Positions 7,322-30,300 of a stretch of 36,480 nt of DNA are shown piece by piece. Within the stretch, counting starts at the first letter, position 1. Each line of letters starts with the position of its first letter. The notes under the pieces were generated by a model. That model saw only the letters and a program-made list of their open reading frames with translations. It made no database searches and had not been told where the DNA came from. Origin of the DNA: Anaerolineae bacterium (lineage in GTDB: Bacteria > Chloroflexota > Anaerolineae > B4-G1 > DUEL01); the NCBI GenBank assembly GCA_016926575.1, contig JAFGOJ010000073.1:1-36480 (forward strand). Direction: 5' to 3'. A program made the translations under genes and the position numbers.

Positions 7322-8980
7322 ATGCCTGAATATCTTTCACCTGGCGTCTACGTAGAGGAAGTGGACCGTGGCCCCAAGCCCATCGAGGGCGTGGGGACAT
7401 CGATGGCCGCATTCATCGGGTTCACCGAAAAGGCGGAACTGCGCCGCGAGATCGACGGCGAGATGGTCACCCAGGACCTGCTCAACATCCCCCAACTGGT
7501 CACCAACTGGACCCAGTTCGTCGAACGGTACGGCGAGTTCGTGCCGGGGTCGTACCTCGCCCACTCCGTCTACGGATATTTTATGAATGGCGGCACGCGT
7601 GCCTACGTGGTCAGCGTGCGCACCATCCCCAAAGCCCAGGCCGCGCTGCTCAACGCCGAGGGCAAGCCGCAACTGGTGGTGCGGGCCAGGCAGGCCGGAT
7701 TCGAAGGGATGCGTATGCGCGTCCGCATCGCCGACGTCCTGGCGCTGCCCGAACCGAAGGGGGCCAGAAAAGCCAAGAAAGAAGGGGACGAAGAAGGGCC
7801 GGCCGAGCCGGAAGGTGTGGGCGACGCGACCCCCTCATTCACCCTGATCGTCGAGCGCGAGCGGATGGACGGCGGCTGGAAGGTGGCCGAGGAAGTCCGC
7901 GACGTCACGATGCACGAGGTCAGAGAGAACGGCAAGGCCGAGGTGCGCGTGGCCTACCGGAACAACCGCCCGCCCGAGCTGGTCGAGCTACTGATCCCCG
8001 ACGCCAGCCAGCCGCTGGCGAAGGTGTGGCCGCAGGAGCAAGAACAGACGCTGCACATCGAATCGAAGCAGTTGCCCGCACCCACCAGCGCCGAGTTCCA
8101 GGGCAAGGTCACCGAGCGCAGCGGCGTGGAAGGGTTGGAGGCACTGGAAGACGTGACGATCGTGTGCGTGCCCGACCTGATGGCGTCGATGCCCGGCGAG
8201 TCGGTCGAACTGGACACGATCAAGGCCGTGCAGACGATGATGATCGCCCACTGTGAGCGGCTGGGCGACCGGGTGGCGATCCTCGATGCGCCCCCCGACA
8301 TGACGCCGCAGGAAATCAAGAAGTGGCGCATGGAGACCGCCGGCTTCGACTCCAGCTACGCCGCGCTCTACTACCCGTGGATCACGGTGATGGACCCGGT
8401 CACCAACCGGCCCATCCACATCCCTCCGTCGGGCCACATGGCGGGCATCTGGGCGCGCAACGACATCACGCGCGGCGTCCACAAAGCTCCCGCCAACGAG
8501 GTGGTGCAGGGCGCGATCGGGCTGGCCTACCAGACCACCAAGGGTGAGCAGGACACGTTGAACCCCAACGGCGTCAACTGCATCCGCGCCTTCCCCGGCC
8601 GCGGCATCCGTGTCTGGGGCGCGCGCACGCTCTCCAGCAACCCCTCGTGGCGCTACATCAACGTGCGCCGGCTGTTCAACTTCGTGGAAAAGTCGATCGA
8701 GGGCGGCACGCAGTGGGTGGTCTTCGAGCCGAACGACCGCAAGCTGTGGGCGCGCGTGCGCCGCGACGTCACCGCCTTCCTCAAGACGGTGTGGCGCGCC
8801 GGGGCGCTGTTCGGCAGCACCCCCGACGAGGCGTTCTACGTCAAGATCGACGACGAACTCAACCCGCCCGAAATCCGCGACCAGGGCAAGCTGATCATCG
8901 AAATCGGCATGGCCCCGGTCAAACCGGCCGAGTTCGTCATCTTCCGCATCAGCCAGTGGGCCGGACCGGGAGCGGAATAG
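7322..8980 (+). CDS. Contractile tail sheath protein (Afp2-4/Cis2-like)
   Basis: The N-terminus MPEYLSPGVYVEEVDRGPKPIEGVGTSMAAFIGFTEKA is the canonical sheath start. The C-terminal domain carries YAALYYPWI, VNCIRAFPGRGIRVWGARTL and WRYINVRRL motifs. RBS AAGGAGGGA precedes the ATG. Confidence 0.95.
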   Translation: MPEYLSPGVYVEEVDRGPKPIEGVGTSMAAFIGFTEKAELRREIDGEMVTQDLLNIPQLVTNWTQFVERYGEFVPGSYLAHSVYGYFMNGGTRAYVVSVRTIPKAQAALLNAEGKPQLVVRARQAGFEGMRMRVRIADVLALPEPKGARKAKKEGDEEGPAEPEGVGDATPSFTLIVERERMDGGWKVAEEVRDVTMHEVRENGKAEVRVAYRNNRPPELVELLIPDASQPLAKVWPQEQEQTLHIESKQLPAPTSAEFQGKVTERSGVEGLEALEDVTIVCVPDLMASMPGESVELDTIKAVQTMMIAHCERLGDRVAILDAPPDMTPQEIKKWRMETAGFDSSYAALYYPWITVMDPVTNRPIHIPPSGHMAGIWARNDITRGVHKAPANEVVQGAIGLAYQTTKGEQDTLNPNGVNCIRAFPGRGIRVWGARTLSSNPSWRYINVRRLFNFVEKSIEGGTQWVVFEPNDRKLWARVRRDVTAFLKTVWRAGALFGSTPDEAFYVKIDDELNPPEIRDQGKLIIEIGMAPVKPAEFVIFRISQWAGPGAE

Positions 8981-9007: not shown

Positions 9008-9454
9008 ATGCCCGCGAGTACGTACAACTACTTTCTGTTCATAGAGGCCGTGCCGGTCACAGAACCGTTCACCTCGGTCAGCGGCCTGGGGTCCGAGATC
9101 AGCGTGGCCAAAGAGACCATCGTCGATCCGGATACCGGTGACACGGTCATAGAAAGCATCTCGGGGCGTCCAACCTTCACCGACATCGTGCTCACCCGCC
9201 CGGTCACCGAAAACGACGGCTTCTGGCGCTGGCACAAGGATATTATAGAGAACAAAGACCGCCGCGCCAACTGCTCCATTGCTGCCCGCGACGCCAGCAA
9301 CCGCATCGTCGCCTGGTGGAACATCGAAAAAGCTTGGCCCAGCAAGATTGTCGTCTCTGAGCTCAAATCCTCGACCAGCGAGGTGTTGGAGGAAACGATC
9401 ACGCTGTCGCACGGGGGCATCACGCGCGTCCCAACGAACGAGATAACCGGCTAA
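9008..9454 (+). CDS. Tail tube protein, T4 gp19-like (Afp1/Cis1-like), paralog 1
   Basis: 148 aa. It has the FxxxIEGV...VSGLGSEISV...GRPTFTDIVLTRPV...WWNIEKAWPSK...ETITLSHGGI pattern typical of the phage_tail protein family. RBS AAGGAGGAG lies upstream. Confidence 0.9.
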   Translation: MPASTYNYFLFIEAVPVTEPFTSVSGLGSEISVAKETIVDPDTGDTVIESISGRPTFTDIVLTRPVTENDGFWRWHKDIIENKDRRANCSIAARDASNRIVAWWNIEKAWPSKIVVSELKSSTSEVLEETITLSHGGITRVPTNEITG

Positions 9455-9487
9455 AACAGATAGCTTGCAAAAACATGGAGGTGTATT

Positions 9488-9934
9488 ATGGCGGATCGGG
9501 AGGATCCCCTTGTAGCATTTAAATTTGGTCTGGAGATTGAAGGAAAGCTCACCGGCTTCTTCACCACGGTATCTGGCATCGGGTCGGAGAGCGAGGTCGT
9601 CGAGCACAAGATCACCAACCCCGACACGGGCGAGACGATCATCCAGAAGATCCCAGGCCGTTTGAGTTGGACCGACATCACCCTCAAGCGCGGGGTGACC
9701 AGCAGTGTCGACGTGTGGGAGTGGCGTCAGCAGGTCGTCGACGGACTGGTCAACGACGCGCGCACCAACTGCTCCATCGTCGCCTACAACCAGTCCAACG
9801 AAGAGATCGCACGTTGGAATCTGGACAACGCCTGGCCCAGCAAGGTCACCGGCCCGGAGATGGACTCCGGCAGCCAGGACTACATGGTCGAAGAGATCAC
9901 CATCGTCCACGAGGGCCTGGCCCGCGTGTCGTGA
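9488..9934 (+). CDS. Tail tube protein, T4 gp19-like, paralog 2
   Basis: 148 aa. Motifs: FKFGLEIEGKLTGFFTTVSGIGSESEVVEHK...PGRLSWTDITLKRGV...WNLDNAWPSKV...EEITIVHEGL. It is clearly paralogous to 9008..9454. RBS GGAGGTG lies upstream. Confidence 0.9.
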   Translation: MADREDPLVAFKFGLEIEGKLTGFFTTVSGIGSESEVVEHKITNPDTGETIIQKIPGRLSWTDITLKRGVTSSVDVWEWRQQVVDGLVNDARTNCSIVAYNQSNEEIARWNLDNAWPSKVTGPEMDSGSQDYMVEEITIVHEGLARVS

Positions 9935-9997
9935 GTGCGCCGCCAGTGGGTCCCGGGATGTCGAACGCGCTCCCGGGACCCACGAGAGGAGGTAGGG

Positions 9998-10549
9998 ATG
10001 CCATTTTTGGTACGTCCCAGTTCGACGAAGAGTCTGGGCCCCAGCGCCCACGACTTCGGCGCGGATCTGCTGGAGTACGAATACAAGCTCACCGTCGAAG
10101 GCAAAGTAACGGGCTTCTTCCAGCGCATGACCGGCGGCAAGATCGAGGTGGGTACCATCTCCCACGACATCGTCTACGAAAACGGCACCTCGACGACGCT
10201 GTTCATCCCCGGCACGACGAGCTTCGAGCCGATTACGCTGGAACGGGGATTCGCCAACTACCAGGAGCTGTACAACTGGCTGATGGAGGCCTCGTACGGG
10301 CGCATCACCCAGGCGCGGCGCGATGGCAGCATCGAAATGACGCGACGCGGCCAGCCGCTGCTACGGTGGGATTTCAGCGGCGCCTGGCCCACGACGCTCT
10401 CCGGCTTCAGCCTCAACCAGTACCAGGACGCAACCAAGGCGCGCGTCTCTATCACCATCGCCGTCGAAGCCATCGAGTACGTCGAAATCGAACCGCCTGA
10501 GGACGAAGACTTCGACGCCCAGGCGTACTTCACAGACCTGTTTTCTTGA
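9998..10549 (+). CDS. Tube-family protein, paralog 3 (possibly Afp5/Cis5-like)
   Basis: YKLTVEGKVTGFFQRMTGGKIEVGTISHD...PGTTSFEPITLERGF...WDFSGAWPTTLSGF...ITIAVEAIEY matches the same gp19-like pattern. I chose ATG 9998 because GAGAGGAGG lies 6-8 nt upstream. The track ORF starts at GTG 9935, abutting the previous stop codon, with a basic, unconvincing extension. Confidence 0.75.
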   Translation: MPFLVRPSSTKSLGPSAHDFGADLLEYEYKLTVEGKVTGFFQRMTGGKIEVGTISHDIVYENGTSTTLFIPGTTSFEPITLERGFANYQELYNWLMEASYGRITQARRDGSIEMTRRGQPLLRWDFSGAWPTTLSGFSLNQYQDATKARVSITIAVEAIEYVEIEPPEDEDFDAQAYFTDLFS

Positions 10550-10560
10550 AAAGACACCAT

Positions 10561-10752
10561 ACCAGACTCTACTGAAAAAAGCCTTCAACCACAAAGAGCA
10601 CAAAGGACACAAAGAAAAACATGAAGGAATTGCGCGAGATTGCCCAAAAAACAGCACGAAGAACAAGAGAATCTTAAGGCGAATATTGAAAATCTTAGTG
10701 CTCTTTGTGTCCTTTGTGGTTGCCTTTCCTTTTTTTCAGTAGAGTCATACCA
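10561..10752. repeat. AT-rich element of about 190 bp bounded by imperfect inverted repeats (possible MITE-like insertion, structured RNA or bidirectional regulatory module)
   Basis: The left arm gactctactgaaaaaa (10565-10580) is the exact reverse complement of ttttttcagtagagtc (10731-10746). Inner arm segments (caaccacaaag / ctttgtggttg, plus shuffled agcac-aaag-gacac blocks) extend the pairing. GC content drops sharply relative to the flanking genes. Confidence 0.8.
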
Positions 10753-10773
10753 TTCTTCCAAAAGAGGTAACGC

Positions 10774-11142
10774 GTGAGCATACAGACCGAATTCGAATTC
10801 ACCCTGCCGGTGGGGTTCGTCGACCGAGAAGGCAACGTGCACAAGCAAGGCACGATGCGCCTGGCGACGGCAATGGACGAGATCACGCCGCTCAACGATA
10901 TGCGCGTGCAAGCCAACGAGGCCTACCTGGTCATCGTGCTCCTGGCGCGGGTGATCACCCGCCTGGGCAGCCTGCCCCACATCAACACCAGCATCATCGA
11001 AAACCTCTTCGCGGCCGACCTGGCCTACTTGCAGGAGTTCTACCGCCAGATCAACGAGAGTGGGAAAACCACGCGCCCGGTGCGCTGCCCGCACTGCAAC
11101 GAGGTGCTCGAAGTGGACCTGGCCAACCTGGGGGGATCGTAG
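10774..11142 (+). CDS. Phage-tail-assembly-chaperone-like protein (small conserved CIS protein between the tube and putative tape measure genes)
   Basis: 122 aa, GTG start with AAGAGG 6 nt upstream. The sequence MSIQTEFEFTLPVGFVDREGNVHKQGTMRLATAMDEITPLND...AYLVIVLLARVITRLG...CPHCNEVLEVDL resembles, from memory, proteins annotated as phage tail assembly protein in actinobacterial CIS loci. Position is as for the lambda G / P2 E chaperones. Confidence 0.6.
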   Translation: MSIQTEFEFTLPVGFVDREGNVHKQGTMRLATAMDEITPLNDMRVQANEAYLVIVLLARVITRLGSLPHINTSIIENLFAADLAYLQEFYRQINESGKTTRPVRCPHCNEVLEVDLANLGGS

Positions 11143-11303
11143 GCTACCCCCTCGACCGCCTGCACGAGGAGGTAGCCTACATCGCCTACCACTTCCACTG
11201 GCCGCTGATGGACATCCTCAATCTGGAGCACCGCCAGCGCCGGCAGTGGGTGGGCGAGATCGCCAAGATCAACCGCAGGCTGAACGAGGCCGGTAAAGGG
11301 TAA
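11136..11303 (+). CDS. Start-codon-less ORF in the -1 frame (55 codons; DUF6760-like by memory), candidate frameshift extension of 10774..11142
   Basis: Manual translation of the frame with codon starts divisible by 3 gives IVGYPLDRLHEEVAYIAYHFHWPLMDILNLEHRQRRQWVGEIAKINRRLNEAGKG, then stop TAA 11301-11303. The composition looks protein-like. There is no in-frame ATG or GTG upstream, and the frame is open back beyond 10980. The ORF begins right after the slippery-looking G GGG GGA at 11130-11136. Confidence 0.5.
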   Translation: MVGYPLDRLHEEVAYIAYHFHWPLMDILNLEHRQRRQWVGEIAKINRRLNEAGKG

Positions 11304-11309
11304 CGCGCT

Positions 11310-11495
11310 ATGGCATATATCGATCTCTACGCACCGCCGCTCCTCGGTCGTGACGTCGAAGACGAGGAGGCCACGACGTTTCGAGTGCCGATAGAGGACG
11401 TCGACCTGTACGCGCTGGCCGAAGAGGTCGCCCGCTTGCTCAAGCACGACTTGTGGCTGGAGCGGGAGCGCCGCAGCCTGCGCCAAGCGCGGTAA
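11310..11495 (+). CDS. Small hypothetical protein (61 aa) with a C-terminal ALA..V..LLK..L.LERERR motif
   Basis: The ATG lies 6 nt after the previous stop. The N-terminus is acidic (RDVEDEEATTFRVPIEDVDLY). The C-terminal 27 residues share 13 identities with the C-terminus of the 806-aa protein at 12213..14633. Confidence 0.5.
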   Translation: MAYIDLYAPPLLGRDVEDEEATTFRVPIEDVDLYALAEEVARLLKHDLWLERERRSLRQAR

Positions 11496-11506
11496 AAGGA
11501 GGCACA

Positions 11507-12212: not shown

Positions 12213-14633
12213 ATGGCATCCGAGACGACTTTCCACACCGTCATCGAAAGAAGTGAGCGACTGCGGCGCTCACTGTCGCCGTGGACGCGTCGGCGCCTGG
12301 CGGCGGCTTCCCCGCCCCGCGCGCCGACGCTGACCGCAGCCAACGTGCGCGGGCTGCTGCAGCGCTCGCAACAGCGACTGGAACGCGCCACGGTCTGGAA
12401 GCCCGACGTCGGCTCGCTGCGGCCCGACCTGGTGCAGCGCTTCAGCCGCACGATCGCAGGCCGGTTCCAGAGCGCGCCGCTGGTAAGCGTCCGGCGCGCG
12501 CCGGCCCCCGCCGCCTTCGCCTGGGAAAGCGGCGCAGAGATGACATTGCTCGCCGGAACCGCCCCGTCTGCCCCAAGCGCGGAAACCCAACGCCTCCGCT
12601 CCACCCCCGGTGCGCCGAACGTCCTCAGCGCCGGGCAGCGCATCGAACCGCTGCGCCCGGCGGCTCCCACTACGCCGTCGTCGCGCCCAAAGTCCGCCCC
12701 CCGTCCGGCCCACCAGCCCACGCAGCGCAAGCCCATCGCACCCGGCACGCGCCTCTACACGCACGTGGAAGAGGTAGTTTCAGGAGACAAGAAGCAGGAG
12801 ATAGGCAGCAAGAAGCAGGAGACAGGCAGCAAGAAGCAAGAGGCAGACGCGCAGGAGCAAGGCGCAGAAGGCGGAGCGGTTTTTCTACCGCCAGAAGTCC
12901 CCGCCTCGGAACGACCACCGGCCCCGCCGCAACCGTCCCCAGCGCCCGCCGCGCCGGTGCAGCGCACGCCCACACCCCAGGCGCGGACCGCCCAGCAAGC
13001 ACCGAGCAAGAGGCAGGAGGTAGGAGGCAGGACGGTCGCGCCGCCGCCCACGCCGCGCGCGATTGCGACGCCACCGGCGGATATTGGAGCGCCGCGCGTT
13101 CAGCAGGAAGAGACGCCGCAAGCTACGCCGGTCGACATCCCTGCCCCTGCGCCCGCGGCCGAGGCGACCCCTCCACAAGCAGTTCCCATCCCGGCAGAAA
13201 CGCCTGCCGCTGCCGAACTGCCATGGGTCCAGCGCGCGGTCGAACCGAAAGCGCCGCCGCAGATGCCGCCGCCTGTCGAACCACCACCGGTCCCGCCCCG
13301 CCCCCTGCGCGCGGTCGAGCAGGCCGCGTCTCCACGCGAGGCGCAAGGGGAAACGCCGCGCGCCCCGCTGCCGAAGCCGCCGGTGCAGCGCACCGTTGGA
13401 ACCGAAGCGCCACCGCAGGCGGCGGGAGAGGATGCGCCCTCGGCCACGCCAGCCGACCCGACCGTCCGACACGCCGCCGCACCGCCGCAGGCCCCACCCG
13501 CCGGCATCCCCACCCCTGCACCCACACCAATGCACCGCACGCCCACACCCCAGACGGAGATCGCCCGGCAAGCACCGGACAAGAAGCAAGAGGCAGGAAG
13601 CAGGAAGCAAGGGGCAGGAAGCAAAAGGCAGGAAGTAGGAAGCAGGAAGCAAGAGAAAAAAGACGAGCTGCCTGTTACGCCGCCTGCGCAGCCCGCGCCG
13701 CGCCCCGAGCTGGTGTTGCGCCCCCCCACCCACCCGCCCGCCGAGGTTCGGCGAGAACCGCAGCCCACTGGCGAACCGGAAGCCGCGACGGCCTTGCCAG
13801 AAGCCGCGCAGGCCTTGCCAGAAGCCGCGCCGGCCTTGTCGGAAGCTGCTCCGATCCTGCCCGAAGCCGCGCCGCCCGCACCCGCGCAGCTATTGGCCCG
13901 CGACGTCGTGGCGCGGGCCACGCCCAGACCCGCCGCGCGGCGCACGCCGCTCCCGGTGATCCGTCGCAGACCGGTTGTTGTGCTCCGGTGCAGCGCACAG
14001 CGCACCACCGCCGCCGCTCCGCCGCTCGCCGCAGCGCAGGCAGCGACGGCCGGCCGCCGCCCGCAGCCGTCTCCGGCAAGCACGCCCGCGCCCACGTTGT
14101 ACGCGCGCAGCCCCACCCGCTACGTCGGCGCGGACGTCTCGCTGCCCGTGTCGAGGCCCGGGGCCGCGCCACCGGCAGGCACAAGCGCGGCTGTGTCGCC
14201 GCTGGAAACGGCCGTCGACGCGTGGCGCGCCCAGATTCAACGCGAGGAGCAGATGGTCCTGCCGCCAATGCCGCGAGTAGCACCGCCACAGCCCGTCACC
14301 GCCGCACCGGTACAGCACGCATCTCGACCGACGCCGTCCCCGAGCGGCCCGCAGCCCCCCACCCCCGCGTTGGCCGGGCCGCAAGCGCAGGCCGCCGCTT
14401 CCCCCGCGCTGGCCCTGCCGCCCGCGATGGAGGTGGCACGTCCTCAACCGGCGCCGACGGTGATGGCCTCCATCGCCGAGCCGCCCCCCCAGCCGGTGGT
14501 GCAGCGGGCCGAAGGTCTGGAAGCATTGGAAGAGACGGAGGAATTGGACATGGCGGCACTGGCCCAGCGCGTCTACCCGCTGGTCAAACGCCTGCTGTCG
14601 ATCGAGCGGGAGCGCCGCCCGGCAGGGCTATAA
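12213..14633 (+). CDS. Pro/Ala-rich 806-aa protein with internal heptad repeats; putative tape-measure (Afp14/Cis14-like) or lumen protein
   Basis: This frame has GC-rich third positions and a P/A/Q/E-rich but structured sequence. It ends with ELDMAALAQRVYPLVKRLLSIERERRPAGL. The overlapping 803-aa ORF in the other frame is Arg-rich junk. The gene sits between the chaperone-like genes and the LysM/VgrG baseplate genes. The tape-measure assignment is inference from position and size only. Confidence 0.6.
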   Translation: MASETTFHTVIERSERLRRSLSPWTRRRLAAASPPRAPTLTAANVRGLLQRSQQRLERATVWKPDVGSLRPDLVQRFSRTIAGRFQSAPLVSVRRAPAPAAFAWESGAEMTLLAGTAPSAPSAETQRLRSTPGAPNVLSAGQRIEPLRPAAPTTPSSRPKSAPRPAHQPTQRKPIAPGTRLYTHVEEVVSGDKKQEIGSKKQETGSKKQEADAQEQGAEGGAVFLPPEVPASERPPAPPQPSPAPAAPVQRTPTPQARTAQQAPSKRQEVGGRTVAPPPTPRAIATPPADIGAPRVQQEETPQATPVDIPAPAPAAEATPPQAVPIPAETPAAAELPWVQRAVEPKAPPQMPPPVEPPPVPPRPLRAVEQAASPREAQGETPRAPLPKPPVQRTVGTEAPPQAAGEDAPSATPADPTVRHAAAPPQAPPAGIPTPAPTPMHRTPTPQTEIARQAPDKKQEAGSRKQGAGSKRQEVGSRKQEKKDELPVTPPAQPAPRPELVLRPPTHPPAEVRREPQPTGEPEAATALPEAAQALPEAAPALSEAAPILPEAAPPAPAQLLARDVVARATPRPAARRTPLPVIRRRPVVVLRCSAQRTTAAAPPLAAAQAATAGRRPQPSPASTPAPTLYARSPTRYVGADVSLPVSRPGAAPPAGTSAAVSPLETAVDAWRAQIQREEQMVLPPMPRVAPPQPVTAAPVQHASRPTPSPSGPQPPTPALAGPQAQAAASPALALPPAMEVARPQPAPTVMASIAEPPPQPVVQRAEGLEALEETEELDMAALAQRVYPLVKRLLSIERERRPAGL
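12786..12848 (+). repeat. Three tandem 21-bp purine-rich repeats encoding KKQExGS heptads
   Basis: gacaagaagcaggagataggc / agcaagaagcaggagacaggc / agcaagaagcaagaggcagac, read directly from the sequence. The stretch is locally much less GC-rich than its surroundings. Confidence 0.85.
13578..13661 (+). repeat. Four tandem 21-bp purine-rich repeats encoding (K/R)(K/R)Q(E/G)xGS heptads; second copy of the KKQE module
   Basis: gacaagaagcaagaggcaggaagc / aggaagcaaggggcaggaagc / aaaaggcaggaagtaggaagc / aggaagcaagagaaaaaagac. The preceding peptide PMHRTPTPQTEIARQAPDKKQE parallels PVQRTPTPQARTAQQAPSKRQE upstream of the first module. Confidence 0.85.
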
Positions 14634-24295: not shown

Positions 24296-27200
24296 ATGCC
24301 GGCAAACGAACAGTTAGAGATCATCAGCCCGAGTGGAGAGATCACATTCTTCGAATTGGACCCTCGGAAAGGCGTGGCAAACGTCGGGCGGCACCCGGAT
24401 AACGACATTGTCATCGATGCGCCAGGGGTGGCCCCGTTCCACGCGCTGCTGGACTGTAACCAGAGGCCCTACCGGTTGATGCTTCTCAGCGCCGAGGGAG
24501 GCGCCACCCTGCACGGAGAAACGCTCTCACCCAACGCCTCCGTCGACCTGAACCCGTGGGACAGCCTCGAAGTGGGGGGCTACACGGTGATCTTGCTGGA
24601 CAACGCGGTGCCCGCCGGCGCGCCGCCGCCTCCACCGCCTCCCGCCGCTGCGCCGCGCGTTCCGGTTCAGTCCGCTCCAGGCGTGCCGGCGACGATCCCA
24701 CCTCCGCCGACTGAGGTACCGGTACGCCGTGGTGCTCCCTTCCCCGACCAGACCGACGACGTGGTCATTGTCGATCTGTCGGAGCGCGAGTGGACCATCG
24801 ATGTGGAGCAGAGCGCCACATGCCTGACGAGCATCACCAACGGCGGCGACATCGTCGCCTCGTTCTACGTCCACGTCGAGGGCGTGCCGCAGGGCTGGGT
24901 CGTCACCGCACCGGCAGAGGTCAACCTCAACGAGGGGGAACGGGCCACCGTGACCGTCTCCATCACCCCGCCGCGCCATCCCTCCAGCCGTGCAGGCACG
25001 TACCCCATCGCCGTGATCGTGGCCTCGTCCAACTATCCGGGCCACGTCAGCCAGCGCAGCGCCACACTGACCCTCAACCCGTACTACGAGTTCGCCGTGG
25101 GCGAACTGTCGCCCCGCGAGCAGACCGTCGGTTGGCGCGATCCAACCGGCGAGGTGACGCTCAATCTGGTCAACAAAGGTAACAGCGACGCCACTTTCCG
25201 ATTGGACGGCACAGATGACCGGCGCGTGCTCAACTTCGAGTTCGAAGTACCCGGCGAGGACTCCAGGCTGGCGCGCCAGGCCGAGATGCGCCTCCCGCCG
25301 GAGCAGACCTTCGGCATTCCCACAAACGTCACCAGCACATCGCGGCCGCTCTTCGGGCTGCACAAACAGCGCCACCCCTACACCATCTCCGTCGCCATGG
25401 TGCAGGGCGAGCAGTCGCCGCGCGCGCTGATGGGCGAATTGCACGTGCGGCCGCTCATCGGCCCCATCCTGATGGCATTCCTCGCCCTCGTGCTGGGGCT
25501 GCTGATCATCTTGATCTTCCGGCCCAAGATTCACAGCTTCACCTACCGGTACAGCGGCATCATCTACCCCGGCGAAACGATCACCCTGGCGTGGGAGGCA
25601 TCGCCCTTCACCCAACTGGTGATCCAAGAGGACTGGCTCGAATCGGGCGGCAGCTCGACCGTCATTCTCGGCCCCGACGAGCGGCAGCGTTCGGTCAACC
25701 CGCAAGAGACCACGCGCTACACGCTGATCGGCAACAATATCCTCTCGCGCATCATCCAGTTCCTCGAAGTGACGCGCCAGTTGGAAACGTTGGGAGCCGA
25801 CGGCATCGTCCACGTGGGCGTGCTCTACGCCGCCATCAACGAATTCGACGTGATGCCATCGAGCATCGTGGAAGGGGAAACCGTGACGGTGTTTTGGGAC
25901 GTAGCGGACGCCGACGCCATCGAGCTGCTGCGCAACGGCGTGCCCGTTCAGCTTGCCGAGGGGCAGGTGCAGTACACCGACGCGCCGGTAACCAGCCCGA
26001 CGATCTACACCCTGCGGGTGCGCAGCAACTTCAGCGACCGCGCTCCCGACGAGTGGGACGAAGAGATGGCACGCGACGTCATCGTGCGCCCGCCCACCGC
26101 AACCCCTCTGCCCCAACCGTCCATCGTCCAGTTCGACGTCTCACCCCGCGAAGTGTACGCCGGCAAGAGTGTCACCATCACCTGGGAGGTCGACGCCGAG
26201 AGCGTGCTGATTTTGGGCGGGCCTGAACCGGTGGCGAGCAATTCTCAGACCGGGTACGAAGTGCAGACACTGCCCCAGCCGGGGACCTTTTCCTACCGGC
26301 TGACCGCCACCTACGCAGATAACACGGGCCAACAAGACCCGACGATTTCCGAAGAGGTGATCGTCGTGCGCGTGTTGGAGCCGCCGACGCCGACGCCCGC
26401 GCCCGTGCCCCCCACCATCACCAGCTTCGAGATCGTGCCCGTCCAGGTGACCCAGGGCGGGAGCGCCCAACTGGTGTGGTCGGTCAGCGGCGAAATGGTG
26501 CGTATGGACATTTCCTACGCAACGCAGGGAAACGTGATCTTCGCCGGCACGAACAAGTCGGGGAGTTTCCCCGCGCCGCACGTCGACACGGTGGGCATCC
26601 ACACGTACATTCTGACCGTCTACGACGCGAACGACGAGGCCACCAGCCAGACGAAAGTGCTCACCGTCATCGAACCGCCGCCGCCGCCTACGGCGACGCC
26701 CCTGCCGTTGGCGGTGACGTTCGAGGCGCAGGGGCTGCGGCCGGGCGTCGACGTGGTGACGCCGATCAACGTGACCGTCAACAGCCGCACCTACAGCGTG
26801 GCTCCCGGCACGAAGGTCAAACTCACCTGGCAGATCGACAACGCCGACACCCCCGAGGTGACCATCAGCCGGAACGGCACGCAGATTCACAGCCAAGTCG
26901 GCCCCACCGGCATCTACGAGGACACAGACGCCATCTACGCGACGACACAGTACCAGCTCCACGCCGAGTACGAAGGGCTGAGCGCAGACGCGCTGGTCAG
27001 CATCGTTCCGTTGGACCTGGACGTGCCGCCGCCGCCCTACGACGTCGATGGGGCACTCACGGCCTCGAACACGCTGTCGGTCACCTGGAAGTACACGCCA
27101 CCGGAGAACGTGTACGCGATCACCGGTTTCGTGGTGTGGCGCGCGCCCGATCCCTACACGCTCTTCACGCCGGTCGCGGAAACCACCGATACCGCGTGCG

Positions 27201-27355
27201 ATCCGCAATGTGGGTGGGAAGATACCGTCACGCCGAACTGCGGCTATGCCTACTACATCACCGCCATCTACCTCGACCGGTACGGGGACCGTCAAGAGAC
27301 GGAACCCAGCGCGGAACGGTTCTACAGCGGCCCGTGCCCTACACCGACGCCGTGA
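24296..27355 (+). CDS. Bitopic FHA-domain membrane protein: N-terminal FHA, Pro-rich linker and beta-sandwich domains, a single TM, then extracytoplasmic Ig-like/FN3-like repeats
   Basis: RBS GGGAGAGGG precedes ATG 24296. The FHA region is GEITFFELDPRKGVANVGRHPDNDIVIDAPGVAPFHALLD...LEVGGYTVILLD. The TM is LIGPILMAFLALVLGLLIILIF (about nt 25453-25518). The C-terminal 600 aa contain repeated beta-rich modules separated by PPTPTP / PPPPPTATP linkers. Confidence 0.8.
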   Translation: MPANEQLEIISPSGEITFFELDPRKGVANVGRHPDNDIVIDAPGVAPFHALLDCNQRPYRLMLLSAEGGATLHGETLSPNASVDLNPWDSLEVGGYTVILLDNAVPAGAPPPPPPPAAAPRVPVQSAPGVPATIPPPPTEVPVRRGAPFPDQTDDVVIVDLSEREWTIDVEQSATCLTSITNGGDIVASFYVHVEGVPQGWVVTAPAEVNLNEGERATVTVSITPPRHPSSRAGTYPIAVIVASSNYPGHVSQRSATLTLNPYYEFAVGELSPREQTVGWRDPTGEVTLNLVNKGNSDATFRLDGTDDRRVLNFEFEVPGEDSRLARQAEMRLPPEQTFGIPTNVTSTSRPLFGLHKQRHPYTISVAMVQGEQSPRALMGELHVRPLIGPILMAFLALVLGLLIILIFRPKIHSFTYRYSGIIYPGETITLAWEASPFTQLVIQEDWLESGGSSTVILGPDERQRSVNPQETTRYTLIGNNILSRIIQFLEVTRQLETLGADGIVHVGVLYAAINEFDVMPSSIVEGETVTVFWDVADADAIELLRNGVPVQLAEGQVQYTDAPVTSPTIYTLRVRSNFSDRAPDEWDEEMARDVIVRPPTATPLPQPSIVQFDVSPREVYAGKSVTITWEVDAESVLILGGPEPVASNSQTGYEVQTLPQPGTFSYRLTATYADNTGQQDPTISEEVIVVRVLEPPTPTPAPVPPTITSFEIVPVQVTQGGSAQLVWSVSGEMVRMDISYATQGNVIFAGTNKSGSFPAPHVDTVGIHTYILTVYDANDEATSQTKVLTVIEPPPPPTATPLPLAVTFEAQGLRPGVDVVTPINVTVNSRTYSVAPGTKVKLTWQIDNADTPEVTISRNGTQIHSQVGPTGIYEDTDAIYATTQYQLHAEYEGLSADALVSIVPLDLDVPPPPYDVDGALTASNTLSVTWKYTPPENVYAITGFVVWRAPDPYTLFTPVAETTDTACDPQCGWEDTVTPNCGYAYYITAIYLDRYGDRQETEPSAERFYSGPCPTPTP

Positions 27356-27388
27356 CGGGCTGAAATATTCGGCCACGAAGGCACTCAT

Positions 27389-30300
27389 ATGAAACGAAAG
27401 AATCGTCCCAAGGGCTTCGTCAATCGAGCACCAGCCAGTTTCATCTCGACTCTGGTCCTGGTATGCGCTTTGGCTGCCCTGACCACGCCGGTCGGGGCAG
27501 GTTCGACTCTGAACCAGGCACTCGATCCCCTCTCGCCGCGTTCCCCGGCCGCTGACCTGCTCGTGCTCAGCCAATCCGCTCAGACCAGCAGCGGCACGCC
27601 CGGCATCGTCTACAACGGTGGGACGGTGACGTATACCCTGACGCTCGAAAATCAAGGCTCGACAGCCATCACCAACATTCTGGTCAAAGACTTCCTGCCG
27701 CGCGAGGGCGAGACGGTCTATTACCTGCAAAACACAGCCTGCGTCACGCCCGACTATGCGTGTACGCCGATCGACAAGACCTACGAAATTCCCCTCCCGT
27801 CGGGCAACACCGTTGAAGTGGCAGCCACACGCGAGATTAGTTGGAGCATCCCCAGCCTGGGCCCCGGCGCATCCGTCGCGCTCCGCTTCGTCGGGCAGGT
27901 GCTCGGGCAGCCCGACGGGACGGTCTTCACCAACAACGCCGAAGCCACCTACAGCGGGAACGTTGTCCGAAGCGCCCCGCTGAGCCTTACCGTGGTCGTA
28001 CTGGTCGACGTCAGCGGCGAGGCGGGCATTTCCACAGTGCCGACGTGGTTCTCCCAGGACGTCGGCGGCACGATCAGCCAGGACTGGGGCGACTTCGACC
28101 GCGATGGACTGCTGGACCTGGCGCTGGGTTCCTCGATCGGCGTCTCGGTCTACCGTAACGACGGCGAGAACCTGAGCGAGACACCCGTCTCCACCGCCGC
28201 CGATGACCCCTACCGCCCGGCCTACGGCGTGCGCTGGGCCGACGTGATCTCCGACATCGCGGGATGCCTGGAACTGGTCGTCGTAGGCGATAGCGTGAAC
28301 CACAGCTCCATCGGCGCGGGCATCAACTACGTCTACCACTACGACGGCAGCACCTTCGTCGAAGTCAGCAGCTTCCCCAGCGCCTACCAACTGGTGCGCC
28401 TGGAGCCAGGCGATGTCGACGCCGACGGGGACGTCGACCTGATCGGCAGCACCAACGCCATCAATGCCCCCTGCAATGTCACCCTCTACCTCAACGACGG
28501 GAGCGGCAGCTTCGGCACCGAAGCTTGTCTCAGCGAGTACGCCACCGCCGCGCTCGCCGCCGGCGACTACGACCGCGACGGAGACCTCGACCTGGCGGTG
28601 GGCGCATTCCCAGGAACGATCCAGCTCATCCAAAATGCCGGCCCCGTCTCCCCCGACGTCAATCCCTTCGACACAGACGCACCCATCCTGCTGGAAAGTT
28701 TCCTGGAATACATCCCCTACGACCTGGCCTGGGGCGATTTCGACCAGGACACCGATCTGGACCTGGCCGCAGCATACCCGATCCAGCGCGCCGCGCAGGT
28801 GTACCGGAATCAGAGCGCCGTCCTGACGCCGTTCCAATCGCTGACTACCGGCCCGTTTCTGACCCCTCTCGCCATCGATTGGGGCGATTTCAACGGTGAC
28901 GGTCAGTTGGAACTGACCGTGACGGATTCCCCCCCCGCTTTCTACGCCTACGACGCCACACAAGACCGCTTCGAGCGCTGGGAGCTCGACCTGCCGGATA
29001 ACAGCGGCCAGATTTGGAGCGTGCGCGGCATTGACCTCTACAACCAGGCCAACCTCGACCTGGTCATGACCAACCGTGACGGCCCCAGCCAGATTTACCC
29101 GGCCTTCTCCCCCAACCTGGAGCCCCACCTGACCGAAATCACCCCCGTGGGCTGGGGGAGCAACAGCGTGGCCTGGGGCGACGTGGACAGCGACGGCGGG
29201 TTGGACCTGCTCTTCGGCAGCAGCCCGGCGCCGAACTCGTCCAGCTACCTCTACCACAACGTGGACGGCACGTTCCCCACCGGGCAGGGCCTCGCCGACG
29301 GATTCGGCCCTCACGTGGTCGCTTTCGGCAACGTCGAGCAAGATACGGTGCTCGATATGGCCATCGGCGCGCCTGCCGCGCTACTGGTCTACCTGGACGG
29401 CGCAATCACGTCTCCCATCGACGTGCCCTCCGAGCAGGCGATCCTCAGCCTGGCGTGGGCCGACCCCGACGACGACGGCCGCCTCGACCTGTTGGTGGGC
29501 TACGCGGCCGATGATGGCGGACTGGGGCGCGTCGCCTTGTTCCACTTCGATGGCGCGACGGCCACGACATCCTTCACCGCCACCACCGCCGGCGGCGTCC
29601 GCGGCCTGGCCTGGGCCGACGTCGACCGCGACTACTACCTGGACTTTGCCGCCGTCACCGACGCAGGTGCGCTGCAACTGTACCGCAACACAGGCGACGG
29701 CGCCTTCGAGCTCGACTGGCAATCGCCCTCCCTGACCGCCCCTCGCGCGGTGGCCTGGGCCGACGTCGACGCCGACGGCGACCTCGACCTGGCAACCGGG
29801 CACTACGGCACACAGGACCTGGTCTGGGAAAACGACAACGGCGCATTCGAACCCACCCCTATCGGGCCGTCGGACGGCAAGACCACCTGTCTGGCCTGGG
29901 GCGATTGGAACAACGACGGCTACCCCGAACTGGCCGTGGGCACCGACGACCGGCAGCGGGACGTCGTCTACGCCAACCTCGGCAGCGAGCCCGGCGCGCT
30001 GCGGCTCTACCCACTGTGGCAGAGCGAGAGCGCCGCCGCCACCGGAGGCCTGGCCTGGGGCGACGCGGACGGCGATGGCGATCTGGACCTAGCCGTCAGC
30101 CGCAAGGGCGGTTCACGCAGCGGCTTCTACGAGAATACGATGTGGCCCGCCGCACACTTCACCGGCCTCAACACGCTGCTCGATCCGGCCTTGCCCAACA
30201 CCCCCGCCTACGTCTCCGTCGCGCGGCCCGGCACGACCCCGGATGCCTATTTCTACGCCTCGCCCGAACTGGTGACCGGCCCTAATCACCCCACCGTCAC

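What the first reader, a model, noticed from the sequence alone, without database searches (positions are those of the whole stretch)
11128..11303. Candidate programmed -1 ribosomal frameshift (G GGG GGA) fusing the tail-assembly-chaperone-like ORF to a start-less downstream ORF
**Seen in sequence**
- The 122-aa ORF ends CTG GGG GGA TCG TAG (11128-11142).
- The heptamer G GGG GGA (11130-11136) fits the X XXY YYZ slippery pattern.
- In the -1 frame the reading continues ATC GTA GGC TAC... for 55 codons: IVGYPLDRLHEEVAYIAYHFHWPLMDILNLEHRQRRQWVGEIAKINRRLNEAGKG, stop at 11301-11303.
- This sequence is clearly protein-like, yet there is no ATG or GTG start anywhere upstream in that frame. That is why it is missing from the ORF track.

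**Established knowledge**
Long-tailed phages make two tail assembly chaperones through a -1 frameshift just upstream of the tape measure gene (lambda G/GT, P2 E/E+E').

**Interpretation**
Here the pair sits between the tube genes and the putative tape measure. I am not aware of this being described for eCIS-type loci. Alternatives are a non-canonical start (for example ATC at 11136), transcriptional slippage, or a homopolymer sequencing error in the six-G run.
Basis: partly seen in the sequence, partly recalled or inferred. Interest (0 to 1): 0.7.

Follow-up and report, generated by a model that had tools for sequence, protein, structure and literature searches.

The report
Frameshifted tail chaperone in injection-system locus
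A phage-tail-like injection-system gene cluster makes its tail assembly chaperone in a short and a long form through a conserved programmed -1 ribosomal frameshift (a run of G followed by an RNA hairpin); phages such as P2 and lambda are known to do this, but I found no report of it for these systems, where databases list the second half as a separate gene of unknown function.

Summary
The 122-aa ORF (10774-11142) ends CTG GGG GGA TCG TAG. The -1 frame then runs 55 codons (11136-11303) with no ATG, GTG or TTG upstream, and it matches Pfam DUF6760 (E=9e-14).

Evidence that this is a programmed -1 frameshift:
- **Frame.** In 80 related genome loci from at least six phyla, the downstream part lies in the -1 frame in 78 of 81 sequences. 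Two more show it locally, after an upstream indel. None is +1.
- **Slip site.** Every -1 locus has a G run that starts at codon position 3 (G GGG GGG, G GGG GGA or G GGG GAA).
- **Hairpin.** A hairpin (window 11139-11180, -27 kcal/mol) follows at a fixed distance and shows compensatory changes.
- **Isolates.** Finished genomes of Streptomyces, Rhodococcus, Nostoc, Ralstonia and Paenibacillus show the same signal.
- **Other heptamers.** Distant relatives use T TTT TTC or G GGA AAG instead.
- **Homology.** The upstream part matches a phage tail-assembly-chaperone family. The extension is homologous to E', the frameshift extension of phage P2 E+E'.

Sequencing error is excluded. Transcriptional slippage and separate initiation are unlikely. 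It is a new member of a known kind, and I found it unreported for contractile injection systems.

The parts
10774..11142 (+). Zero-frame ORF (122 aa, GTG start preceded by AAGAGGT): the short form of the tail assembly chaperone, with a CPHC zinc-ribbon-like motif near its C terminus
   Evidence: ORF list. PHROG 508 'tail assembly chaperone', E=1.5e-8, and all 44 sampled orthologues match it. Weak hits to Pfam Gp41_Mu and Phage_TAC_7. NCBI names some homologues 'phage tail assembly protein'.
11130..11136 (+). Slippery heptamer G GGG GGA, in the X XXY YYZ phase relative to the zero frame
   Evidence: Sequence. An in-phase G run of at least 5 is present in 78 of 78 -1-type loci. The first in-phase heptamers are GGGGGGG (47), GGGGGAA (19) and GGGGGGA (12). 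The same holds in isolate genomes.
11139..11180 (+). Downstream stimulatory stem-loop: GUAGGCUACC-C-CCUCG [10-nt loop] CGAGG-A-GGUAGCCUAC. Its conserved core, GGCUACC, starts 12 nt after the first base of the P-site GGG codon
   Evidence: MFE -27.3 kcal/mol, z=-6.3, 0 of 200 shuffles fold as well. Across 78 loci, 86.8% of cells are paired against 31-53% for slid partners; the covariation score is 0.168 against 0.04-0.085, and 0 of 500 shuffles reach it. RNAalifold finds the same stem independently. The 3' arm uses the rare Val codon GTA in 71 of 73 cases against a 9.6% background.
11136..11303 (+). -1-frame extension (55 codons plus TAA) with no start codon of its own: DUF6760, the counterpart of P2 E'
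   Evidence: Pfam DUF6760, E=9e-14. hhalign against P2 E' gives probability 94%, E=1e-7, with a shared FHWP motif. No ATG, GTG or TTG in this frame. Coding periodicity in this frame.
10774..11303 (+). Coding region of the predicted 176-aa frameshift product (...VDLANLGG|IVGYPLDRL...)
   Evidence: Single-ORF homologues of 174-177 aa align straight through the junction.
12213..14633 (+). 806-aa Pro-rich ORF, the presumed tape-measure-like client of the chaperone (context; inferred)
   Evidence: Its position upstream of the CIS_tube/LysM and VgrG genes. In the phage-like relative L098, a PhageMin_Tail tape measure directly follows the DUF6760 frame. The ORF itself has no family hit.

Best explanation
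**What it is.** The two reading frames encode one chaperone in two forms.
- Most ribosomes translate 10774-11142 and stop at TAG, giving a 122-aa tail assembly chaperone.
- A fraction slip back one base on G GGG GGA (11130-11136) while the hairpin at 11139-11180 sits at the mRNA entrance of the ribosome.
- Those ribosomes continue in the -1 frame to 11303 and make a 176-aa protein that carries a DUF6760 (P2 E'-like) extension.

**What it does (inferred).** This follows lambda G/GT and P2 E/E+E'. The common N-terminal part would coat the tape-measure-like protein. The rarer long form would recruit tube subunits. The fixed ratio of the two would then be part of tail-tube assembly and length control in this contractile injection system.

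**Shown here:** the signals, their conservation and the homology.
**Inferred:** the slip itself, its efficiency, and the roles of the two proteins.
For: **1. Frame relation.** The downstream part is in the -1 frame in 78 of 81 sequences and never in +1. Two of the three exceptions (L027, L034) have an upstream indel and are still -1 locally, with G GGG GGA.

**2. Slip site.**
- A G run of 5-8 always starts at codon position 3.
- The preceding codon varies (Leu, Pro, Val, Met, Ser, Ala, Gln) but always ends in G.
- The distance to the conserved Tyr codon is fixed at 15 or 18 nt.

**3. Hairpin.**
- It is conserved with compensatory changes. For example, Leu CTC/CTG pairs with GAG/CAG, which is an E/Q amino-acid change (32 C-G against 24 G-C).
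- Val is GTA in 71 of 73 cases against a 9.6% background.
- Streptomycetaceae have a different stem (GTACGCG/CGCGTAC) at the same place.

**4. Other heptamers.** Distant relatives keep the -1 geometry with other canonical heptamers: T TTT TTC or T TTT TTT (L095-L098, L100) and G GGA AAG (L101, L102).

**5. No start codon.** Most loci have none in the second frame. RefSeq had to call ATA as the start in Nostoc.

**6. In-frame fusions.** These exist and align through the junction.

**7. Homology.** The N part matches PHROG 508. The C part matches P2 E'. Synteny is like P2, which runs sheath, tube, E/E+E', tape measure.

**8. Finished isolate genomes.** They show the same arrangement.
Against: - No protein or ribosome data exist, so the fusion product and its abundance are inferred.
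- G-rich heptamers, and especially G GGG GAA (where the A-site tRNA would re-pair with a G:U at the middle position), are not the classical efficient E. coli sites. Slippage may involve the P-site tRNA only.
- The spacer in the window is short: 2-3 nt to the first possible base pair and 6 nt to the conserved core.
- The hairpin lies in strongly conserved coding sequence (GYPL...EEVAY), so part of its conservation comes from the protein.
- It is also retained in L081, the one clear in-frame fusion.
- About 15 of 78 loci have an ATG or GTG overlapping the stop (ATGA or GTGA). Those loci could also reinitiate.
- The N part shows no detectable similarity to P2 gpE itself.
Confidence: 0.85

Rival explanations
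1. Transcriptional slippage. RNA polymerase adds one G in the G run, so a subset of mRNAs encodes the fusion in a single frame. No ribosomal frameshift is involved.
For: Half of the loci have runs of 7-8 G. Inserting one G gives exactly the same fusion protein. Two short metagenome contigs carry one extra G and are in frame (L082 with 8 G, L083 with 9 G), which shows the run is indel-prone at some level.
Against: - 19 of 78 loci, and many isolates, have only 5 G. From my own knowledge, that is too short for appreciable polymerase slippage, which favours long A or T runs.
- The 5' end of the run is fixed at codon position 3. A downstream hairpin sits at ribosome-entrance distance and covaries. 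Neither feature is needed for polymerase slippage.
- L101 and L102 use G GGA AAG, which is not a homopolymer.
Confidence: 0.07
2. Two separate proteins. The DUF6760 peptide is made on its own, either by initiation at a non-canonical codon (ATC 11136 in the window) or by termination-reinitiation at the overlapping stop, with the G run acting as a Shine-Dalgarno-like element.
For: - RefSeq annotates the pair as two CDSs.
- About 15 of 78 loci, plus Rhizobium, Streptomyces and the haloarchaea, have an ATGA or GTGA overlap.
- GGGGG can pair with the anti-SD sequence.
Against: - Most loci, including the window, have no ATG, GTG or TTG anywhere in the frame.
- The codon at the equivalent position is ATC, ATA, GTA or others.
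- The G run is 0-4 nt from it, too close for an SD.
- This model explains neither the invariant -1 phase, nor the in-phase start of the run, nor the hairpin.
- In-frame fusions align through the junction without a gap.
- The homologous P2 E' is a proven frameshift extension.
Confidence: 0.06
3. Artefact or decay. The frameshift is a homopolymer sequencing or assembly error in a single 176-aa gene, or the gene is a pseudogene.
For: - A six-G run is error-prone.
- A few single-ORF versions exist.
- Nanopore-based MAGs in the set do show indels elsewhere in the gene.
Against: - The same -1 arrangement is seen in 78 of 81 sequences from independent projects and in finished isolate genomes.
- The window differs from its closest relative (8 G + AATCA against 6 G + ATCG) by exactly one codon, which preserves the relation.
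- Both parts are under purifying selection.
Confidence: 0.02

Closest known systems
Phage P2 E / E+E' tail chaperone pair (programmed -1 frameshift at T TTT TTG, between tube gene FII and tape measure gene T)
   Same: - Synteny runs sheath, tube, then chaperone pair, upstream of a long tape-measure-like gene.
- The -1 extension of about 55 aa has no start codon.
- The extension is homologous: hhalign probability 94%, shared FHWP motif, and a faint Pfam Phage_P2_GpE hit.
- Distant relatives even use a T-run heptamer like that of P2.
   Different: - The host element is an AAA+ ATPase-containing contractile injection system locus, not a phage.
- The slip site is a G run followed by a strong in-ORF hairpin.
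- The N-terminal part has a C-terminal CxxC motif and no detectable similarity to gpE.
- Two extra ORFs separate the pair from the presumed tape measure.
Phage lambda G / GT and the general conserved frameshift of long-tailed-phage tail assembly chaperones (Xu, Hendrix and Duda 2004; cited from my own knowledge)
   Same: - Two overlapping ORFs upstream of the tape measure.
- A -1 shift at an X XXY YYZ site.
- The arrangement is conserved while the sequences and heptamers diverge. L101 and L102 carry lambda's own heptamer, G GGA AAG.
   Different: - No detectable sequence similarity to G or T was seen.
- Lambda's site is reported to need no strong downstream structure (my own knowledge), whereas here a hairpin is conserved.
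- Lambda is a siphovirus, not a contractile system.
Cis6 / Afp6 / Pvc6 / Alg6 spike-plug protein of lineage I eCIS
   Same: A small helical protein of about 55-60 aa, encoded among the tube genes of a contractile injection system and essential for assembly (PMC8894136, PMC12546770).
   Different: - Cis6 is a free-standing gene product found in the particle.
- DUF6760 has no start codon and is fused by frameshift.
Whether the deposited plug chains are in that copy was not checked.
- Not the same thing on present evidence.

Membership tests
Programmed -1 frameshift pair of phage tail assembly chaperones (lambda G/GT, P2 E/E+E' type) | Two overlapping ORFs located after the tube gene(s) and before the tape measure gene | tested here: met
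   Sheath 7322-8980; tubes 9008-10549; the pair 10774-11303; then a 61-aa ORF, a gp19-like ORF, the 806-aa ORF, and CIS_tube/LysM and VgrG. The phage-like relative L098 has a PhageMin_Tail tape measure directly after the pair. In the window, two ORFs intervene.
Programmed -1 frameshift pair of phage tail assembly chaperones (lambda G/GT, P2 E/E+E' type) | The second ORF is in the -1 frame and lacks its own initiation signals | tested here: met
   78 of 81 sequences are -1 and none is +1. The window and most loci have no ATG, GTG or TTG in that frame. A minority have ATGA or GTGA overlaps.
Programmed -1 frameshift pair of phage tail assembly chaperones (lambda G/GT, P2 E/E+E' type) | An in-phase X XXY YYZ slippery heptamer in the overlap | tested here: met
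   G GGG GGA at 11130-11136. All 78 -1-type loci have an in-phase G run. Other clades have T TTT TTC or G GGA AAG. The G GGG GAA and G GGG GAG variants fit only with a G:U re-pairing or with P-site-only slippage.
Programmed -1 frameshift pair of phage tail assembly chaperones (lambda G/GT, P2 E/E+E' type) | The arrangement is conserved across divergent relatives while the sequences change | tested here: met
   Loci come from Chloroflexota, Myxococcota, Acidobacteriota, Pseudomonadota, Gemmatimonadota, Planctomycetota, Actinomycetota, Cyanobacteriota and Bacillota.
Programmed -1 frameshift pair of phage tail assembly chaperones (lambda G/GT, P2 E/E+E' type) | Both a short and a long protein are made, in a fixed ratio, and both are needed for tail assembly | not testable with these tools
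   This needs proteomics, reporter assays and genetics.
Pfam Phage_P2_GpE (PF06528) / P2 E' extension | Sequence homology to the E' extension | tested here: met
   hhalign of 44 DUF6760 parts against P2 E': probability 94.2%, E=1.1e-7, 40 aligned columns. The direct Pfam hit is only faint (E=0.076, below the cut-off), so this is a remote relative, not a member by Pfam's threshold.
Pfam DUF6760 (PF20546) | Score above the gathering threshold | tested here: met
   51.7 bits against a cut-off of 27.
Phage tail assembly chaperone families (PHROG 508; Pfam Phage_TAC_7 / Gp41_Mu) | Sequence match of the zero-frame ORF | tested here: inconclusive
   PHROG 508, E=1.5e-8, with 44 of 44 orthologues matching. 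The Pfam Phage_TAC_7 and Gp41_Mu hits are only sub-threshold. There is no match to P2 gpE and no NCBIfam hit.
Extracellular contractile injection system (Afp/PVC-like, lineage II type) | Sheath, tube, VgrG, gp25, Baseplate_J and Pvc16/Afp16 cap, together with an AAA+ ATPase, and no capsid genes | tested here: met
   AAA+ with winged-helix domain 1014-3131; eCIS_core (DUF4157)+OTU protein 3391-6345; Pvc16_N 6352-7188; sheath; gp19 tubes; CIS_tube+LysM; VgrG; PAAR; gp25; Baseplate_J; Tail_P2_I. The scanned ORFs include no capsid or terminase hit.

The most novel reading that the evidence does not exclude
The G run might be more than a ribosomal slip site. Its length varies from 5 to 9 G between close relatives, and +1G in-frame variants turn up in metagenomes (L082, L083). 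It could therefore also act as a mutational or transcriptional switch that tunes, or locks, the short:long chaperone ratio, and with it particle yield or length.

Separately, the haloarchaeal versions carry an in-phase G GGA AAY four codons before the stop. If that site is used, it would add a conserved -1 frameshift to the very short list known in archaea.
Probability: 0.1. Interest if true: 0.7.

Novelty: new member of a known kind. Interest (0 to 1): 0.55.

Why it matters
**1. It explains a Pfam family of unknown function.** DUF6760 is the frameshift-encoded extension of a tail assembly chaperone and a remote relative of P2 E'. RefSeq currently lists it as a separate gene, sometimes with a forced ATA or GTG start.

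**2. It bears on how these systems are assembled.**
- The CIS literature I could search describes lineage II and Streptomyces systems as lacking a typical tape measure and as carrying conserved genes of unknown function (PMC6899500, PMC10066040).
- None of those papers mentions a chaperone or a frameshift.
- A conserved P2-type chaperone pair implies that these systems assemble their tube around a tape-measure-like protein, as phages do. It also points to the long ORF upstream of the baseplate genes as that protein.

**3. It is practical.** The pair is present in the CIS-type loci found on Streptomyces plasmids, a genus whose chromosomal CIS is studied experimentally. Anyone who refactors or codon-optimises such clusters for protein delivery would destroy the slip site and the hairpin, and so lose the long form.

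A phage-tail specialist would find it expected in hindsight. For the injection-system field it appears to be unreported.

Tried and rejected
- **Structure prediction.** AlphaFold2 on the 176-aa fusion with a 12-sequence alignment gave mean pLDDT 54 and pTM 0.32. That is too poor for a fold search, so none was run.
- **PDB sequence searches.** Profiles of the DUF6760 part, the N part and the small downstream ORF found only designed helical proteins or noise.
- **GenBank phages.** tblastn of the fusion found no match.
- **N part against P2 gpE.** hhalign found no similarity.
- **NCBIfam.** No hit for any of the four small or long ORFs.
- **Rfam.** No family matched in 10700-11500.
- **Upstream Shine-Dalgarno-like stimulator, as in dnaX.** GAGG at -20 is present in only 30 of 78 loci, is encoded by the conserved Glu-Val codons, and is absent from the window. 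I make no claim.
- **Hairpins after the T-run and G GGA AAG sites of distant clades.** Local stems exist, but the folding energies are not distinguishable from shuffles (z from +0.5 to -1.6). I make no claim.
- **The three 'in-frame' genome loci as counter-examples.** Rejected for L027 and L034, which have upstream indels in Nanopore MAGs and are still -1 locally. L009 is in frame but shows further indels.
- **P0002 as a natural fusion.** Rejected, because its CxxC region is replaced by out-of-frame sequence.

Full report
**Observation**

The sequence is as described. The 122-aa ORF 10774-11142 starts at GTG behind AAGAGGT and ends CTG GGG GGA TCG TAG. The G run is 11130-11135. The heptamer G GGG GGA (11130-11136) begins at the third base of the Leu codon.

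The -1 frame reads on from ATC (11136) for 55 codons to TAA at 11301-11303. That frame is open from 10743 and contains no ATG, GTG or TTG before 11150. The 55-aa peptide matches Pfam DUF6760 well above threshold (E=9e-14).

**Setting**

The window is a complete contractile injection system locus:
- an AAA+ ATPase with a winged-helix domain (1014-3131);
- an eCIS_core(DUF4157)-OTU protein (3391-6345);
- a Pvc16_N cap protein (6352-7188) and the sheath (7322-8980);
- three gp19-type tube ORFs (9008-10549);
- the ORF pair, then a 61-aa ORF, another gp19-like ORF and an 806-aa Pro-rich ORF (12213-14633);
- CIS_tube+LysM, VgrG, PAAR, gp25, Baseplate_J and Tail_P2_I.

The closest relatives are Anaerolineae MAGs (89% identity).

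**Is the frame relation conserved?**

A protein search with the conceptual fusion found about 6,000 relatives. Most are 120-125-aa proteins that end at ...LGG plus 0-2 residues. A few are single ORFs of 174-177 aa that align without a gap through the junction (GG[IV][IV]GYPL).

I then fetched 80 loci from species-representative genomes of Chloroflexota, Myxococcota, Acidobacteriota, Pseudomonadota, Gemmatimonadota and Planctomycetota (at least 580 such loci exist).
- In 78 of 81 sequences the DUF6760 part is in the -1 frame relative to the chaperone ORF, and in none is it +1.
- Two of the three exceptions (L027, L034; Nanopore MAGs) have an indel further upstream, and locally still read ...G GGG GGA... 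with the -1 relation.
- L009 is in frame but shows other indels.

**Slip site**

- In every -1-type locus a run of 5-8 G starts at codon position 3.
- The preceding codon encodes Leu, Pro, Val, Met, Ser, Ala or Gln but always ends in G.
- The first in-phase heptamers are GGGGGGG (47), GGGGGAA (19) and GGGGGGA (12).
- The first G lies 15 nt (53 loci) or 18 nt (25 loci) before the conserved Tyr codon.
- In most loci (73 of 78) the zero-frame stop follows within two codons of the first in-phase heptamer.
- In neighbouring long ORFs the in-phase motif G_GGG_G occurs at 0.16% of codons.
- The window (6 G + ATCG) and its nearest relative (8 G + AATCA) differ by exactly one codon, so the relation is preserved.

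**Hairpin**

Immediately downstream, 11139-11180 folds into GUAGGCUACC-C-CCUCG / CGAGG-A-GGUAGCCUAC (-27.3 kcal/mol, z=-6.3).

On an ungapped alignment of 78 loci:
- 86.8% of cells are paired, against 31-53% when the partners are slid by 1-3 columns.
- The covariation score is 0.168, against 0.04-0.085 for slid partners and 0.121±0.006 for shuffles (0 of 500 reach it).
- RNAalifold recovers the same stem.

Compensatory changes include:
- Leu CTC/CTG paired with GAG/CAG, which changes Glu to Gln (32 C-G against 24 G-C);
- GGC/AGC/CGC paired with GCC/GCT/GCG;
- TAC/TAT paired with GTA/ATA.

The 3' arm uses the rare Val codon GTA in 71 of 73 cases, against 9.6% of Val codons nearby. Third-position entropy is lower inside the hairpin than in the rest of the extension (0.95 against 1.37). 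The conserved core GGCUACC starts at +12 from the first base of the P-site GGG. That places it at the mRNA entrance of a ribosome holding the heptamer.

**Isolates and distant relatives**

tblastn against PLSDB found the pair, nearly always as two pieces in different frames, in 46 replicons of cultured organisms: Streptomyces (24 records), Kitasatospora, Rhodococcus, Nostoc, Brasilonema, Ralstonia, Paraburkholderia, Burkholderia, Rhizobium, Paenibacillus and two haloarchaea.

The junctions read:

| Organism | Zero-frame junction |
|---|---|
| Rhodococcus | ACG GGG GGA TCA TAG |
| Nostoc | CTG GGG GAA GTA TAG |
| Three Streptomycetaceae | CTG GGG GAA TCG TGA |
| Paenibacillus | GCG GGG GAG CTC TAA |

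- Streptomycetaceae have a different stem (GTACGCG/CGCGTAC) at the same position.
- RefSeq annotates two CDSs, named 'phage tail assembly protein' and 'DUF6760 family protein'. In Nostoc the second begins at ATA.
- In IMG/VR contigs, a more distant clade (L095-L098, L100) has GAT TTT TTC or TTT TTT T in phase two codons before the stop. L101 and L102 have TTG GGA AAG, lambda's heptamer.
- One of these contigs (L098) looks like a phage: HK97-gp10-like protein, sheath, tube, the pair, then a PhageMin_Tail tape measure.

A changing heptamer with a constant -1 geometry is the signature described for phage tail chaperones.

**What the proteins are**

- The zero-frame ORF matches PHROG 508, 'tail assembly chaperone' (E=1.5e-8; 44 of 44 orthologues). 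It matches Pfam Gp41_Mu and Phage_TAC_7 only weakly.
- A profile of 44 DUF6760 parts aligns to E', the frameshift extension of P2 E+E' taken from the annotated P2 record. The hhalign probability is 94%, E=1e-7, and both share an FHWP motif.
- P2 has the same order of genes: sheath FI, tube FII, E/E+E' with an annotated -1 site at T TTT TTG, and tape measure T.

**In-frame versions**

- About 5% of the 50%-identity representatives listed span both parts.
- L081 became in frame through a 2-nt deletion, and its run is reduced to GGGG. It still has the hairpin.
- L082 and L083, both short metagenome contigs, simply have one more G than their -1-type relatives.

These cases show that the fusion is a functional protein. 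They also leave open some DNA-level instability of the run.

**Mechanism and rivals**

The best explanation is -1 ribosomal frameshifting on the G run, stimulated by the hairpin (confidence 0.85). It would give a majority 122-aa chaperone and a minority 176-aa chaperone-E'-like protein. The functions follow lambda G/GT and P2 E/E+E' and are inferred.

- **Transcriptional slippage (0.07).** It is disfavoured by the 5-G loci, the fixed phase, the downstream hairpin and the non-homopolymer heptamer in L101 and L102.
- **Independent initiation (0.06).** It is possible only where ATGA or GTGA overlaps exist, and it does not explain the signals.
- **Error or pseudogene (0.02).** It is excluded by the conservation.

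**Literature**

- No paper in the held library contains 'DUF6760'.
- Full-text searches combining eCIS or contractile injection system with frameshift, slippery or assembly chaperone returned nothing relevant.
- The eCIS, tCIS, PVC and Streptomyces CIS papers that I checked by in-text term search contain neither 'frameshift' nor any mention of a tail assembly chaperone.
- They describe lineage II and Streptomyces clusters as lacking a typical tape measure and as carrying conserved genes of unknown function (PMC6899500, PMC10066040).

**Verdict**

It is a new member of a known kind: the P2-type chaperone frameshift, here as a conserved part of contractile injection system loci.

Noticed in passing
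window 11310-11495 and 14520-14633: The 61-aa ORF that follows the DUF6760 frame ends in a conserved helix, D-L-x-A-L-A-x-x-V-x-x-L-L-x-x-E-L-x-x-E-x-E-R. At least 28 of the 78 loci share it. The same motif forms the extreme C terminus of the 806-aa Pro-rich ORF (...LDMAALAQRVYPLVKRLLSIERERRPAGL). It may be a shared docking helix, for the spike cavity or for the chaperone. No PDB or Pfam match was found.
   Followed up: partly
L108 about 800-825 (Halogeometricum borinquense pHBOR03) and L111 about 795-820 (Haloferax larsenii plasmid): The haloarchaeal versions of the pair have an in-phase G GGA AAT or G GGA AAC four codons before the stop, and also an ATGA start/stop overlap. They may use either -1 frameshifting or coupled reinitiation. 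Conserved -1 frameshifts are rarely documented in archaea.
   Followed up: partly
L095-L100 and L101/L102 (IMG/VR contigs): Distant DUF6760 relatives use T TTT TTC or T TTT TTT (as P2 does) or G GGA AAG (as lambda does) in place of the G run. L098 is phage-like, with a PhageMin_Tail tape measure directly after the pair, and its N part hits Pfam T4_baseplate (E=1e-7).
   Followed up: partly
L082 520-535 and L083 694-706: Two short metagenome contigs carry 8 and 9 G, one more than their -1-type relatives, which puts the two parts in frame. These could be sequencing errors or natural run-length variants. The run varies from 5 to 8 G among species.
   Followed up: partly
window 3391-6345: A 984-aa protein with an eCIS_core (DUF4157) domain and a C-terminal OTU cysteine-protease domain lies just upstream of the cap gene. 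It is a candidate cargo or effector.
   Followed up: no
window 24296-35671: Downstream of the baseplate genes lie a 1019-aa FHA-domain protein and a 2760-aa ORF. Neither has been characterised here.
   Followed up: no
proteins P0121, P0122, P0126, P0128: Some representatives of 244-252 aa match the chaperone N part in two stretches. This suggests tandem duplication of the chaperone domain in some lineages.
   Followed up: no
L009, L027, L034, L109: The three Microflora Danica MAGs (L009, L027, L034) and the Kovacikia plasmid record (L109) show extra frame breaks inside the chaperone gene. These are most likely long-read indel errors. Such records can mimic 'in-frame' or 'split' variants.
   Followed up: yes
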